Source: Polyangiales bacterium
GTDB lineage: Bacteria > Myxococcota_A > Polyangia > Polyangiales > Houyiibacteriaceae
Assembly: GCA_045106895.1 (NCBI GenBank)
Contig: JBGCFM010000210.1
Location: forward strand, 1-33,882
DNA length: 33,882 nucleotides
Reading direction: 5' to 3'
Shown here: positions 9,001 through 12,000 of the stretch, one piece after another
Layout of the letters: every line of letters starts with the position of its first letter
Position numbering within the stretch: position 1 is the first letter of the stretch
Made by a program: the position numbers

Positions 9001-12000
9001 AAGACTTTTGCGCTCCGGACCTCGTCCTCGTCGCCGATGCGTTTCGCCACGAGTTTGATCATCGCCTCGTCATCGAAGACGCCGTGGCGCTGAAACGTGT
9101 TCAGGTTCATTCGTGTCTCGTGCCAACGCGCACGATGCGCGATGTCCGTCCACTCCGTCTTGCCCAGAGGCAGACCTGTGAGCATTCGTGAGGGCACCTT
9201 CGGCACACCTTGAGACTTATCGCCACGCTTCCACGCCTCGTAGTTCAAGACCGCAGCCGGCAGCTTTGAGAGGTCGTGGGGCTTGCCCAGGAGGTAGCCG
9301 AACATAGCCCGCTGCTCGTCGCTTAGAGGCTTCGGGTGAACCATGCGGATCACGTCCGCGAGGGAGGGGTCGTTGCCCACAGAGTCGCGGAAGAGCTGCA
9401 TCGGCGAGCGCTGCTGGAGCCATCGCTGCACGGCCTTCTTTGGCGCGCTGCCCAGAGATTTTCGTCCGAGCTGACCCGAACGAAGGACCTGCACGAAGTT
9501 GCGCAGCATTCGCCCGTTGTCGATGACGCGGGGAAACGCGAGCTTCATGGCCACAAGACCCTCGGGGCCGCGCGTCGCCAAATGCGCCAGAAGCACAGCC
9601 GGCATGTCTTTCATGAATGCGCGCTCGCGTGCGTAGATCGCCGCCTTCGCGACGTAGCGAGCGTCGCACTGAGCGGCGTGCTCCAGGACCACGTCGAGCT
9701 GCTCTTGGCCTGACACGTAGAACGTGCTGCCAAAACAGCCCGTGGCCGCGAGCTGCGCGAGGGCCGTAGGTGAGTCGAGGATGTACGCCGGCGCGCCCGC
9801 GTGATTCATGCTCGTCGTTTTCGGCGCAGCCTTCGCTGCACTTCGGAATAGGGACTTGATGGCCATGGTGTTTCCTTTCGCATTCGGCTGCGAAGCTCGA
9901 TGGCAATCGAGTAGGACTTCATAGAAAGCGGGCGACGAGGTGATGCTGAGACAAGGCTGATGTCCTGCCATTGGACGACCGCGTCCGAAGACGCGACTCG
10001 GAGTCGAACCGAGATAGTCAGAGTGATGTAGTCCCAGCGGCATTCGCCCTGGCGGAAGATGGAGGAGTCGAACCCCTGCGCGTTTACGCCCCCGGTTTTC
10101 GAAACCGGTGTAGCTCCACAGCCACGTCATCTTCCATTGCGCTTCTCCGCCCAGCACGCCGCCCTCTGCGTTGCGCTGCGGCTCGGCATCCACAGATGCC
10201 GTCGCCTTGCGCGCCTTGATGGCGGCGCGCTGGACGAAGAATCGCCGAGGATGTTCTTGGGTCCTCGGACCCGTTGGCCCAGCACGCCGCCCTCTGCGTT
10301 GCGCTGCGGCTCGGCATCTACCGATGCCGTCTTCGGTTGTTGTGCTTCCCCGCCCAGCACGCCGCTGACTGCGTTGCGCTCGGTTCGGCATCCACAGATG
10401 CCCTCACCTCGCGCGCCTTGTCAGCGACGCGCTGGACGAGGAATCACGCGGGGTGTTTTCCTGGCTTCGGGGAAGCTCGGTGGCGCCTTGATGGCGGCGC
10501 GCTGGACGAAGAATCGCCGAGGATGTTCTTGGGTCCTCGGACCCGTTGGCCCAGCACGCCGCCCTCTGCGTTGCGCTGCGGCTCGGCATCTACCTTCGAT
10601 AGTAGTCGGGCGACGAGGTTGTACTGAGACGTTTCCCGACGCCCTCCCATTGGGCCACCGCGTGTTGCGACTCGGATTCGAACCGAGATATTCGGGGTCG
10701 TTGTAGTCCCAGCGGCATTCGCCCTGGAGGAAGCTGGAGGAGTCGAACCCCGACGCGCTTGCGCCACCCGCTTTCCAGGCGAGCTCGGCGACCATCGCCG
10801 ATGCAGCTTCCCAAGTTTGTGCTTCCCCGCCCAGCACGCCGTCTCAGCGTCGCGCCGCGGTTCGGCATCCATAGTGCCGTCGCCTTGCGCTCCTGGGTCT
10901 CGACGCGGTGGACGAAGAATTATCGTGCGGTGTGCACCCGCGAAGGCGGAGGCATGATTGGCGCGCCTCTTTCCGTTCGGCTCCATCGTGGTGTGAATGG
11001 AGGGAGTCGAACCCCCACTGGGCCGAGTTTAAAACGGCTGCCTCTTCCATTGGGCTACACTCACTGGTGCTGTACGAACTACGCCGCGGGTGTGCACCTG
11101 CGAAGGCGTAGGCGGCGCCTGCAGCTGACGGGTAAGGACGTCAGCATGGAGCTTGGTGACGATGGAGAGATTCGAACTCTCACTGAGCTGTTTCTAAGAC
11201 AGCTGCCTCTCCCGTTGGGCTACATCGCCGATGTTTGTTTTAGAGAAAAAGTGGTGCGAGCGAAGGGAGTCGAACCCCCACTGGGCCGAGTTTGAAACGG
11301 CTGCCTCTTCCGTTGGGCTACACTCGCAGCGTCTTCTCGTCTGAGAAGACGTGGTCCCGCCGGGTGGAATCGAACCACCCTCGCCGCCCATATGAAGAGC
11401 GCGCCGGTCCAACCGTCGGCGGGATTTGGTAGCGGGGCCAGGAGTCGAACCTGAGTGCTGAGGGATATGAACCCAGTGTCGCGATGGGGTACTTTGACTC
11501 CGAACTCGAGGCCCTCGTCAGCGATCTCGGGTTCGCATCACCTCGAATGTGCAAGCACGTCCTTCGGCGAAGCGACTCCCGACCTCACGGGCGATCATCC
11601 ACGACTAAGGAGCCAAACCACCCCATCGCGACACAGACGCCGGTCTTCCCCGCAAAGGAAGCCATCGATGCGCCCGTGGGCACACCAATGGACTTGGTGG
11701 AGTCGAGGGGAACCGAACCCCTGACCTCGTGGGTGCAAATCACGCGCTCTCCCAACTGAGCTACGACCCCAAGATTTTCGAAACGGTGATCCGAGCGTGA
11801 ATCGAACACGCGACTTCCTGAATGTTAAACAGGCACTCTCCCTACTGAGCTATCGGATCAAAATGCGCCGGTGCGGCAGGTCGTCGAGGAGTTGAACCCC
11901 GCGCAGCTGGTGTTGGAAGCCTGCTTGTGCCCCGGCACACGACCTAGAGTTCCCTTCCGAGGAGTTTCCGAATGGAAGGAAAAGTGGCGACGAGAAGTTA

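What a model noticed while it worked through the whole genome (the two positions that open the first line are those of the whole stretch)
10989..11327. Class-I (short variable arm) tRNA-Leu genes in a bacterium
Three array tRNAs with leucine anticodons (UAA, UAG, CAA) are 76 nt long with a 5-nt variable loop instead of the long variable arm that marks every known bacterial tRNA-Leu, while keeping the Leu-type 3-bp D stem and discriminator A73. Boldest reading: they are working, LeuRS-charged type-I tRNA-Leu, a natural counterpart of the engineered arm-less tRNA-Leu of E. coli and so far seen in nature only in animal mitochondria; losing the arm may hide them from enzymes or toxins that read class-II shape. 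New would be a natural exception to the class-II rule for bacterial tRNA-Leu and a ready orthogonal-looking tRNA scaffold.
Evidence so far: ARAGORN cloverleaves: C125:10989-11064 (UAA), 11154-11229 (UAG), 11252-11327 (CAA), all 7-bp acceptor, 3-bp D stem with 8-9-nt loop holding GG, 5-6-bp anticodon stem, 4-5-nt variable loop, 5-bp T stem with TTCGA, A73, encoded CCA; Rfam tRNA 49.5, 58.9, 45.2 bits (rna.tsv). The dispersed tRNA-Leu genes of the same genome are 85-87 nt (C84, C97, C136, C255; call 15). Same-genus genome G027 has 76-77-nt Leu UAG, UAA, CAA in its array beside an 89-nt Leu AAG; genus g3 genome G004 has 75-76-nt Leu AAG and CAA; G022's array Leu genes are 85-87 nt. One LeuRS only (g05322/g04271 split by a contig end; call 94).
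(Added by a program. Inside this text positions count along the whole contig: contig position 1 is position 1 of the stretch shown here. "Call 12" and the like, gene names such as g00115 and contig names such as C1 are that model's own, and its searches are not shown. The text may have been shortened before it was handed on; [...] marks where a part breaks off. The agent that wrote the report below was given it as the finding of a first reader that could run no searches.)

Follow-up and report, generated by a model that had tools for sequence, protein, structure and literature searches.

The report
Short-arm leucine tRNAs in mobile array
Three leucine tRNA genes that lack the usual long extra arm are real and look functional, but they belong to a short-armed leucine-tRNA family already proven in Streptomyces and common in actinobacteria, phages and mobile tRNA gene clusters, so this is an ordinary new example.

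Summary
ARAGORN and Rfam find three 76-nt tRNAs at the stated coordinates (minus strand) with anticodons UAA, UAG and CAA, a 5-nt variable loop, a Leu-type 3-bp D stem, A73 and an encoded CCA.

They are almost certainly genuine leucine tRNAs:
- They are the only Leu genes among about 30 clustered "array" tRNAs covering 19 amino acids.
- In 41 array-borne homologues, 97.7% of stem cells pair and 19 of 20 pairs show compensatory change.
- Every tRNA carrying this D-arm plus a short variable loop has a Leu anticodon: 117 of 117 in genomes and 126 of 126 in viral contigs.
- U48 and A73 are near-invariant.

The novelty claim fails. Streptomyces coelicolor has a natural, apparently essential type I tRNALeu(CAA) that its single LeuRS charges (PMC6614811). 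The same scaffold occurs as a lone chromosomal gene in many Actinomycetota and in phage and mobile tRNA arrays. This scan reached the same verdict on other genomes.

Untested: whether this probably myxobacterial host's LeuRS charges them, and whether they are expressed.

One open lead: UAG occurs only in the array in this assembly, and the class II gene survives as a 56-nt stub.

The parts
10989..11064 (-). type I (5-nt variable loop) tRNA-Leu, anticodon UAA, 76 nt, CCA encoded
   Evidence: ARAGORN; Rfam tRNA 49.5 bits; cloverleaf MFE; 87.8% identical to the array tRNA-Leu(UAA) of same-genus genome G001
11154..11229 (-). type I tRNA-Leu, anticodon UAG, 76 nt, CCA encoded; the only UAG-anticodon Leu gene in this assembly
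   Evidence: ARAGORN; Rfam 58.9 bits. No other Leu(UAG) found by ARAGORN, nhmmer, Rfam tRNA over the genome or the class II UAG pattern
11252..11327 (-). type I tRNA-Leu, anticodon CAA, 76 nt, CCA encoded
   Evidence: ARAGORN; Rfam 45.2 bits
10050..12362 (-). tRNA gene cluster holding the three Leu genes: 10 intact tRNA genes on one strand (Ser CGA, Ser GGA, Leu x3, Met, Ala UGC, Val AAC, Lys CUU, Lys UUU)
   Evidence: ARAGORN; Rfam. Sister clusters lie on C74:15452-19569 (17 genes) and C270:180-675 (3 genes)
11424..11655 (-). eleventh array gene: a tRNA with CAU anticodon (read by eye), interrupted in this genome by a roughly 160-nt hairpin-forming repeat (about 11476-11634)
   Evidence: sequence; fold z -6.4. 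The central part recurs at 6 places in G001, and the 3' end matches G001's array. The uninterrupted G001 copy is aligned
10725..10811 (-). array tRNA-Ser(GGA), long variable arm, 8-bp acceptor / 4-bp T stem by eye
   Evidence: ARAGORN; best Rfam match is tRNA-Sec at 42.3 bits (below its cut-off)
10050..10135 (-). array tRNA-Ser(CGA), long variable arm, 8/4 shape by eye
   Evidence: ARAGORN; Rfam tRNA-Sec 41.3 bits (below cut-off)

Best explanation
The three genes are the leucine tRNAs of a horizontally spread tRNA gene array (L-array, or tRNA array unit). They belong to the type I (short variable loop) tRNA-Leu family, the same kind as the biochemically proven tRNALeu(CAA) of Streptomyces coelicolor. 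The likely mechanism has four steps. First, they are transcribed with the rest of the minus-strand cluster and trimmed to the encoded CCA end. Second, they are recognised by the host's single LeuRS through the discriminator A73 and the Leu-type core (U8-A14, A15-U48, the position of G18G19, a 3-bp D stem), independently of anticodon and long arm. Third, they are charged with leucine. Fourth, they read UUR (UAA, CAA) and CUN (UAG) codons as a supernumerary or back-up set. Shown here: the genes, their fold, selection on the fold, the exclusive link between scaffold and Leu anticodons, and their place in the array. Inferred: transcription, charging by this host's LeuRS, and use on the ribosome.
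For: - Genes and cloverleaves.
- They are the only Leu genes among 30 clustered array-type tRNAs (10 on C125, 17 on C74, 3 on C270). Together these cover 19 amino acids, all but Trp.
- The D arm has the architecture of the host's class II Leu genes. In G000 a complementary 3-bp stem followed by AAY..GG.AGA is met only by Leu genes: 3 of the 4 class II genes plus these 3.
- Homologues with all six Leu anticodons sit in the arrays of 10 of 100 related genomes. This is a lower bound, because only 30 loci were fetched.
- On 41 array-borne type I Leu genes, 97.7% of 819 stem cells pair and 19 of 20 pairs have changes on both sides. None of 500 shuffles reaches this, and slid controls pair 38-46%.
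- A pattern of this D arm, a short variable region and the T loop hits only Leu anticodons: 117 of 117 ARAGORN tRNAs in genome contigs and 126 of 126 in viral contigs.
- Features the pattern does not impose are near-invariant: U48 in 260 of 265, A73 in 263 of 265, a 5-nt variable loop in 247 of 265.
- Nearest neighbours are always type I Leu (73-88% identity); the best non-Leu tRNA is 65-68%.
- No G3:U70 (read from the sequences) and no long arm, so the AlaRS and SerRS routes are unlikely. The SerRS rule is taken from PMC7609411 passages.
- Precedent: ScoLeuRS leucylates natural type I tRNALeu(CAA), a 5-nt loop is required, U8:A14 matters, and attempts to delete the gene failed (PMC6614811).
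Against: - No expression data could be had, and charging was not tested.
- Fan et al. report that E. coli LeuRS and one Streptomyces LeuRS fail on the type I tRNA, and that the LSD domain decides. So a bacterial LeuRS cannot be assumed to accept it.
- The host LeuRS is not actinobacterial. It is 68% identical over 588 aa to a Myxococcus LeuRS against 49-59% to four actinobacterial ones. Its segment before KMSKS differs in length from all five compared.
- The UAA and CAA genes carry a U31-U39 mismatch.
- L-arrays are reported as mostly silent (PMC8421152 passages).
- A neighbouring array gene in this genome is broken by a repeat insertion, so not every array gene is kept intact here.
- No sigma-70-like promoter was found in 9700-13000. 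This is a weak consensus scan.
Confidence: 0.65

Rival explanations
1. Passenger genes. They are intact type I tRNA-Leu genes inherited with the mobile array, but in this host they are silent or poorly charged because its LeuRS does not accept the short form. Their conservation would then reflect selection in other hosts or phages.
For: E. coli LeuRS and one Streptomyces LeuRS do not charge the S. coelicolor type I tRNA (PMC6614811). The host LeuRS segment before KMSKS is unlike the actinobacterial ones. L-arrays are described as poorly transcribed unless induced (PMC8421152 passages). A neighbouring array tRNA gene is disrupted here.
Against: Between this genome and its same-genus relative, the UAA gene differs by compensatory changes that keep the stems. 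The UAG anticodon is array-only in this assembly. Similar genes sit in phages of E. coli, Salmonella, Bacillus and Acinetobacter, which argues that many LeuRS types accept them. Herbiconiux has a type I Leu(UAA) with no other tRNA within 1.5 kb, yet its LeuRS has no LSD-length insert, so LSD form does not predict acceptance.
Confidence: 0.2
2. Not for decoding. The short-armed Leu tRNAs would serve as decoys or toxin-proof spares against tRNA-targeting nucleases or nucleotidyltransferases that read the long arm or the host anticodon loop. This is the anti-defence reading of arrays.
For: tRNA arrays are proposed as anti-defence in mycobacteria (PMC12803027 passages). [quoted passage not shown] An AbiEii-family nucleotidyltransferase gene lies in the same island at 2832-3620.
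Against: The array keeps long-armed Ser and Tyr tRNAs. The short form is the housekeeping gene in many actinobacteria, so it did not arise as an evasion device in this array. MenT3 does not prefer tRNA-Leu anyway. This reading is compatible with, not opposed to, normal charging.
Confidence: 0.07
3. Decaying pseudogenes kept only by linkage to the array.
For: U31-U39 mismatch in two of the three. One neighbouring gene is broken. Thermodynamic z-scores are unremarkable, -1.0 to -1.7.
Against: All invariant tRNA positions are intact. There is strong covariation across 41 homologues. CCA is encoded, and 31-39 mismatches recur in 8 of 41 family members.
Confidence: 0.05
4. Recoding tRNAs. They would carry Leu anticodons but be charged with another amino acid, as in yeast mitochondrial tRNAThr(UAG) or Ashbya tRNAAla(UAG).
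For: Identity is inferred, not measured. Such cases exist in mitochondria (PMC7609411 passages).
Against: No G3:U70, a normal 7-nt anticodon loop and no long arm. A73, A14 and A15-U48 match the E. coli Leu identity set as listed in PMC6614811. The scaffold spans all six Leu anticodons and no others: 243 of 243.
Confidence: 0.03

Closest known systems
Type I tRNALeu(CAA) of Streptomyces coelicolor (Fan, Huang, Ji & Wang, NAR 2019, PMC6614811)
   Same: A natural bacterial tRNA with a Leu anticodon and a 5-nt variable loop, beside class II tRNA-Leu genes and a single LeuRS. U8, A14, G18G19 and A73 are present. The variable loop has the same C45-A46-G47 core: the paper prints A44 C45 A46 G47 C48, and here it is C/U44 C45 A46 G47 U48.
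   Different: There it is one chromosomal gene that could not be deleted, in an actinobacterium. Here there are three isoacceptors in a mobile array of a probably myxobacterial host, two of them redundant with class II genes. Position 48 is U here and C there. Charging is proven there and untested here. The S. coelicolor sequence itself was not available to align.
Type I tRNA-Leu genes of phage tRNA clusters (Felixounavirus such as wV8 and Sf14, Bacillus phage PBC2, Rhodococcus phage NiceHouse, Streptomyces phages) and of IMG/VR viral contigs
   Same: Same scaffold. 114 phage records match the UAG gene, with up to 88% identity over 58 nt, mostly annotated tRNA-Leu. In at least 120 viral contigs, all 126 pattern-bearing tRNAs carry Leu anticodons. 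They are often clustered with many other tRNAs.
   Different: Those lie on phage genomes. No phage structural gene was recognised in this window. No paper found in five searches comments on their short arm. The Sf14 study (PMC12482277, passages only) never uses the word 'variable'.
L-arrays / tRNA array units (Tran et al. 2016 PMC4758250; Santamaria-Gomez et al. 2021 PMC8421152; Morgado & Vicente 2018 PMC5966550, listing only)
   Same: Dense same-strand cluster of supernumerary tRNA genes covering nearly all amino acids. Patchy distribution among relatives. Divergent from the host's own tRNAs. RNA-repair genes nearby: RNA ligase and Ro60 here, rtcB co-regulated in Anabaena.
   Different: This array is split over three contigs, so the 20-gene criterion cannot be checked in one piece. 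The passages read from these papers do not mention the type of the Leu tRNAs.
Animal mitochondrial type I tRNA-Leu
   Same: Short variable loop, A73, charged by a bacterial-type LeuRS (as summarised in PMC6614811).
   Different: Organellar, with relaxed structures. ScoLeuRS does not charge the human mitochondrial tRNA, so the two short forms are not interchangeable.

Membership tests
Bacterial type I tRNA-Leu (S. coelicolor tRNALeu(CAA) kind) | Leu anticodon (NAA or NAG) in a 7-nt loop with U33 | tested here: met
   UAA, UAG, CAA
Bacterial type I tRNA-Leu (S. coelicolor tRNALeu(CAA) kind) | Variable loop of 5 nt, the shortest length giving good charging in Fan et al. | tested here: met
   5 nt in all three; 247 of 265 family members parsed have 5 nt; requirement read in PMC6614811 section 14
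Bacterial type I tRNA-Leu (S. coelicolor tRNALeu(CAA) kind) | U8:A14 pair, G18G19, T-loop U54/U55/C56/A58 | tested here: met
   Invariant in the three genes and in 41 of 41 array homologues
Bacterial type I tRNA-Leu (S. coelicolor tRNALeu(CAA) kind) | Leucylation by the cell's LeuRS | not testable with these tools
   One LeuRS in the genome. Its LSD region differs from actinobacterial ones, and no prediction is possible from sequence.
Bacterial type I tRNA-Leu (S. coelicolor tRNALeu(CAA) kind) | Sequence homology to the S. coelicolor gene itself | tested here: inconclusive
   That sequence was not held. Only the printed variable loop could be compared, and 3 of 5 letters are the same. Homology to lone actinobacterial type I Leu genes is 73-75%.
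Canonical bacterial class II tRNA-Leu | Long variable arm (more than 10 nt) | tested here: not met
   5-nt loop; the host's own Leu genes are 85-87 nt
Canonical bacterial class II tRNA-Leu | Leu identity set of E. coli as listed in PMC6614811: A73, A14, A15-U48, G18G19 with U55C56 | tested here: met
   All present; U48 in 260 of 265 and A73 in 263 of 265 across the family
tRNA array unit / L-array | At least 20 tRNA genes at 2 or more per kb (abstract of PMC4758250) | tested here: inconclusive
   10 intact genes in 2.3 kb here; 17 in 4.1 kb on C74; 3 on C270. The density criterion is met, but the number is met only if the three contigs join, which could not be shown.
tRNA array unit / L-array | Supernumerary genes with a patchy, horizontally spread distribution | tested here: met
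   Strong homologues in only 10 of 100 relatives across several families, and also in other phyla and in viral contigs
tRNA-Ala or tRNA-Ser mimics carrying Leu anticodons | G3:U70 (AlaRS), or long variable arm with G73 (SerRS) | tested here: not met
   3:70 is G-C, C-G and G-C; discriminator is A; no long arm

The most novel reading that the evidence does not exclude
In this probably myxobacterial genome, the horizontally acquired type I tRNA-Leu(UAG) may have taken over from the core gene. No intact class II tRNA-Leu(UAG) is in the assembly, although both same-genus relatives have one. All that remains is a 56-nt 3' stub at C66:264-319, 100% identical to the relative's gene. If this is real and not an assembly gap, an array tRNA has replaced a housekeeping tRNA. 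It would also mean that a non-actinobacterial LeuRS must charge the short form.
Probability: 0.12. Interest if true: 0.5.

Novelty: new member of a known kind. Interest (0 to 1): 0.2.

Why it matters
Bacterial tRNA-Leu is not always class II. The short form is proven in Streptomyces and, by these scans, is common in Actinomycetota, phages and mobile tRNA arrays of several phyla. For annotation, such genes should be called tRNA-Leu, not pseudogenes or recoding tRNAs.

Two questions of modest wider interest remain:
- Which bacterial LeuRS enzymes accept the short form. Fan et al. found that E. coli LeuRS does not, yet coliphages carry such genes.
- Whether an array tRNA can replace a core gene, as the missing class II tRNA-Leu(UAG) here hints.

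Tried and rejected
- **Expression.** The look-up of sequencing runs listed no RNA holder for 9900-12400. Read laying was not run, because DNA contigs cannot show expression.
- **Promoter scan**. No sigma-70-like site was found. This is a weak consensus scan and was not used as evidence.
- **Predicting LeuRS acceptance from the LSD**. The segment before KMSKS is long in G000, absent in Myxococcus G101 and Herbiconiux G105, and intermediate in Nocardia, Kutzneria and Amycolatopsis. It does not track the presence of type I Leu genes, so it was rejected as a predictor. One search picked wrong-strand ORFs for three loci and was replaced, whose last print loop crashed after the alignment was shown.
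- **Joining the array contigs, or linking C66 to them**. No end overlaps for C125, C74, C270-left or C66-left, and no flank synteny by tblastx.
- **The 232-nt structured stretch at 11424-11655.** First considered as a new tRNA-like RNA. Rejected in favour of a tRNA(CAU) gene split by a repeat.
- **Literature on short-armed Leu tRNAs in arrays or phages.** Five searches gave only PMC6614811. The array papers PMC4758250, PMC8421152 and PMC12803027 and the review PMC7609411 were read as passages only, and those passages do not mention it. Their supplements were not opened and may list such genes.
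Full report
**Observation**

ARAGORN finds ten tRNA genes on the minus strand of the window between 10050 and 12362. 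Among them are tRNA-Leu(UAA) at 10989-11064, tRNA-Leu(UAG) at 11154-11229 and tRNA-Leu(CAA) at 11252-11327, each 76 nt. Rfam's general tRNA model matches all three end to end at 49.5, 58.9 and 45.2 bits.

The three sequences are 89% alike column by column. All fold into a cloverleaf as their minimum-energy structure. The shared features are:
- a 7-bp acceptor stem;
- a 3-bp D stem with C13 and A22 unpaired;
- A14 A15 and GG in the D loop;
- a 5-nt variable loop;
- a 5-bp T stem with the usual T loop;
- A73 and an encoded CCA.

The only correction concerns the anticodon stems. The UAA and CAA genes have a U31-U39 mismatch, so they have four Watson-Crick pairs.

**Setting in the genome**

ARAGORN over the whole assembly gives 74 calls. 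The host's own Leu genes are class II, 85-87 nt: CAA on C84, AAG on C97, CAG on C136 and UAA on C255.

Besides the ten genes in the window, there are two more dense same-strand clusters of divergent tRNAs. One holds 17 genes at the end of C74 (15452-19569). The other holds 3 genes at the start of C270 (180-675). The 30 clustered genes cover 19 amino acids, all but Trp. Their only Leu genes are the three short ones. I could not join the three contigs.

The left flank of the window cluster carries RNA-repair-type genes:
- an RNA ligase (1007-1714);
- a Ham1-like protein (1711-2847);
- an AbiEii-family nucleotidyltransferase (2832-3620);
- a VIT-vWA protein (3641-6685);
- an ATP-grasp protein (6698-7639);
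- an endonuclease V-like protein (7713-8222);
- a Ro60/Rsr homologue (within 8301-10391).

Two sub-threshold YrlA-like RNAs abut the two tRNA-Ser genes. From about 14 kb onward the genes look like ordinary chromosome.

The genome has one bacterial-type LeuRS, cut by a contig end. Earlier notes of this scan call the genome a Polyangia myxobacterium. In line with that, its LeuRS is 68% identical over 588 residues to one of a Myxococcus chromosome. Against four actinobacterial LeuRS it is 49-59% identical.

**Are they real, selected tRNAs?**

A covariance model of the three genes, run over 101 genomes of the same order, gave matches above 64 bits. ARAGORN confirms these as 73-78-nt Leu tRNAs in ten other genomes: G083, G001, G094, G072, G002, G064, G008, G062, G015 and G026. 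Between them they carry all six Leu anticodons. Only the 30 best loci were fetched, so ten is a lower bound. Eight of these sit in tRNA clusters. In G015 and G026 the gene is the only tRNA in the 3-kb locus. In G072 it shares the locus with a single other tRNA. Some arrays also hold class II Leu genes (G002, G008), and one array holds only class II (G016).

I aligned 41 distinct short Leu genes from loci with three or more tRNAs and counted pairs on the cloverleaf:
- 97.7% of 819 cells form standard pairs;
- 19 of 20 pairs have changes on both sides;
- none of 500 shuffles reaches any observed measure;
- sliding the 3' partners drops pairing to 38-46%.

Kin are not independent and the structure is the standard tRNA one. 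Even so, this is the pattern of working tRNAs, not of decay.

**Is the scaffold leucine-specific?**

The D arm has the same build as the host's class II Leu genes. In G000, a complementary 3-bp stem followed by AAY..GG.AGA is met only by three of the four class II Leu genes and by the three short ones.

I then scanned public collections for this D arm, a short variable region and the T loop.
- **Genome contigs.** All 117 ARAGORN tRNAs carrying the pattern have Leu anticodons: UAA 66, CAA 19, UAG 18, CAG 10, GAG 4.
- **Viral contigs.** The scan again hit its limit at 120 stretches. Of 127 pattern sites, 126 lie in ARAGORN tRNAs, and all 126 are Leu. The one uncalled site also reads CAG.

Features not imposed by the pattern are near-invariant over the 265 parsed genes:
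- U48 in 260;
- A73 in 263;
- a 5-nt variable loop in 247.

A73, A14, A15-U48 and the G18G19 contacts are the E. coli leucine identity set as listed in the introduction of PMC6614811. None of the three genes has G3:U70, and none has a long arm. This removes the two other synthetases that ignore the anticodon. Their nearest neighbours in every set are type I Leu genes (73-88% identity), while the best non-Leu tRNA is 65-68%.

**What is already known**

Fan, Huang, Ji and Wang (NAR 2019, PMC6614811) studied this form directly. I read the abstract, introduction, sections 12, 14 and 15, and the whole discussion. They report that:
- S. coelicolor has a natural type I tRNALeu(CAA) with a 5-nt variable loop beside four class II isoacceptors and a single LeuRS;
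- that LeuRS charges both types;
- five nucleotides is the minimal loop for good charging;
- U8:A14 matters, and A73 is not used by that enzyme;
- the LSD domain of LeuRS decides acceptance of the short form;
- E. coli LeuRS and one other Streptomyces LeuRS do not charge it;
- their attempt to delete the gene failed.

So a natural bacterial type I tRNA-Leu is in print with biochemistry.

My scans add that the same scaffold is common elsewhere. Of the 80 genome loci held with 1.5-kb flanks, 64 have the short Leu gene as the only tRNA. By their record titles these are mostly Actinomycetota, for example Gordonia, Nocardia, Mycobacterium, Corynebacterium, Arthrobacter and Amycolatopsis. Thirteen loci are clusters of three or more tRNAs, in Planctomycetota, Myxococcus, Polyangiaceae, a Chitinophaga MAG, Acidobacteriota, Rokubacteria and actinobacteria.

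In cultured phages, 114 records match the UAG gene. They include Felix O1-like coliphages, Bacillus, Rhodococcus, Streptomyces and Acinetobacter phages, and the matches are mostly annotated tRNA-Leu.

tRNA arrays themselves are a described class of horizontally spread elements (PMC4758250 and PMC8421152, passages; PMC12803027, passages). After I had reached this reading, a look-up showed that earlier reports of this scan came to the same verdict on phage and array tRNAs in other genomes.

Five literature searches found no paper that discusses the short Leu form in arrays or phages. The 2020 review of non-canonical tRNAs (PMC7609411, passages) does not mention it. That gap concerns description, not existence.

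**Mechanism and what remains open**

The best reading is that these are the array's leucine tRNAs. They would be co-transcribed with the cluster, charged by the single host LeuRS through the discriminator and the Leu-type core, and used for UUR and CUN codons as spare or stress-time tRNAs.

Charging and expression are inferred. No RNA run is listed for the stretch. The host LeuRS cannot be judged from sequence. The segment before KMSKS is long in G000, missing in a Myxococcus and a Herbiconiux enzyme, and intermediate in three other actinobacteria. It does not follow the presence of type I Leu genes.

Two points count against strict maintenance of the whole array in this host. The neighbouring tRNA(CAU) gene is split by a roughly 160-nt hairpin repeat that also occurs at six other places in the same-genus genome G001. 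L-arrays are also reported as mostly silent.

**A lead worth a check**

UAG is the one Leu anticodon found only in the array. ARAGORN, an nhmmer profile of the class II genes and Rfam's tRNA model over the genome (66 matches) find no other. A class II Leu(UAG) pattern is present in 29 of 60 relatives, including both same-genus genomes, but not in G000.

G000 does hold, at C66:264-319, a stretch 100% identical to the last 56 nt of G001's 87-nt class II tRNA-Leu(UAG). The 5' 32 nt are replaced by unrelated sequence. This looks like an attachment-site remnant of an integrated element. The intact copy may simply be unassembled: the assembly has 288 contigs and is 96% complete.

If the gene is truly lost, the array tRNA would be the only direct reader with a UAG anticodon. 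An A34 tRNA-Leu(AAG) on C97 might still cover the box.

**Verdict**

The functional reading is probably right. The novelty claim is wrong. This is a new member of a known, widespread kind.

Noticed in passing
window 11424-11655 (-): An unannotated array gene. A tRNA with CAU anticodon (read by eye) and a small D arm is split between the D arm and the anticodon arm by a roughly 160-nt hairpin-forming repeat. The whole stretch folds at z -6.4. The repeat recurs at 6 places in same-genus genome G001, whose array holds the uninterrupted tRNA, which ARAGORN also misses.
   Followed up: partly
window 9926-10050 and 10604-10725 (-): Two YrlA (Y RNA-like) matches at 50.3 and 48.0 bits, below Rfam's cut-off of 69. 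Each starts right where a tRNA-Ser gene ends. A Ro60/Rsr homologue lies next door (TROVE and vWA domains in ORF 8301-10391), and only the C-terminal half of the Rsr profile matches in that frame.
   Followed up: partly
window 10050-10135 and 10725-10811 (-): The two array tRNA-Ser genes have, by eye, an 8-bp acceptor stem and a 4-bp T stem. Rfam matches them best to tRNA-Sec (41-42 bits, below cut-off). This is the 8/4 shape described for some Ser tRNAs of bacteria and phages (PMC5389517, abstract only seen).
   Followed up: partly
window 330-8222: RNA-repair-like island beside the array: twin-BRCT protein, RNA ligase (PF09414), Ham1-like, AbiEii-family nucleotidyltransferase, VIT-vWA protein, RimK-like ATP-grasp, endonuclease V-like. 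A methyltransferase and a zf-PARP protein lie on the other side (12863-14122).
   Followed up: partly
G000 C66:264-319: A 56-nt stretch 100% identical to the 3' end of the class II tRNA-Leu(UAG) of same-genus G001, with the 5' 32 nt missing. No intact class II Leu(UAG) is in the assembly. It looks like an integration-site remnant.
   Followed up: partly
G000 C54:8650-8950: An AT-rich stretch holding separate 5' and 3' fragments of class II Leu-like tRNAs, in an order that does not make a gene. ARAGORN finds nothing there.
   Followed up: no
window 11785-11859 (-); G000 C74:18765-18838: The array carries anticodons unusual for bacteria: Val(AAC) in the window and Ile(UAU) on C74.
   Followed up: no
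G101 (Myxococcus sp. chromosome reached through L079): 7552094-7554502 and 52005-53750: Two LeuRS genes in one genome that also carries an array with a type I tRNA-Leu(GAG). One is 68% and the other 49% identical to the G000 enzyme.
   Followed up: no
L029 (G031:C177) 902-976: A 75-nt tRNA with CUA anticodon, which ARAGORN labels Pyl. It is an amber-reading tRNA in a relative's genome.
   Followed up: no
L012 (G015:C35) and L013 (G026:C6), 1501-1577: Type I tRNA-Leu(CAG) genes, each the only tRNA in its 3-kb locus on a large contig, in two related genomes of one genus.
   Followed up: no
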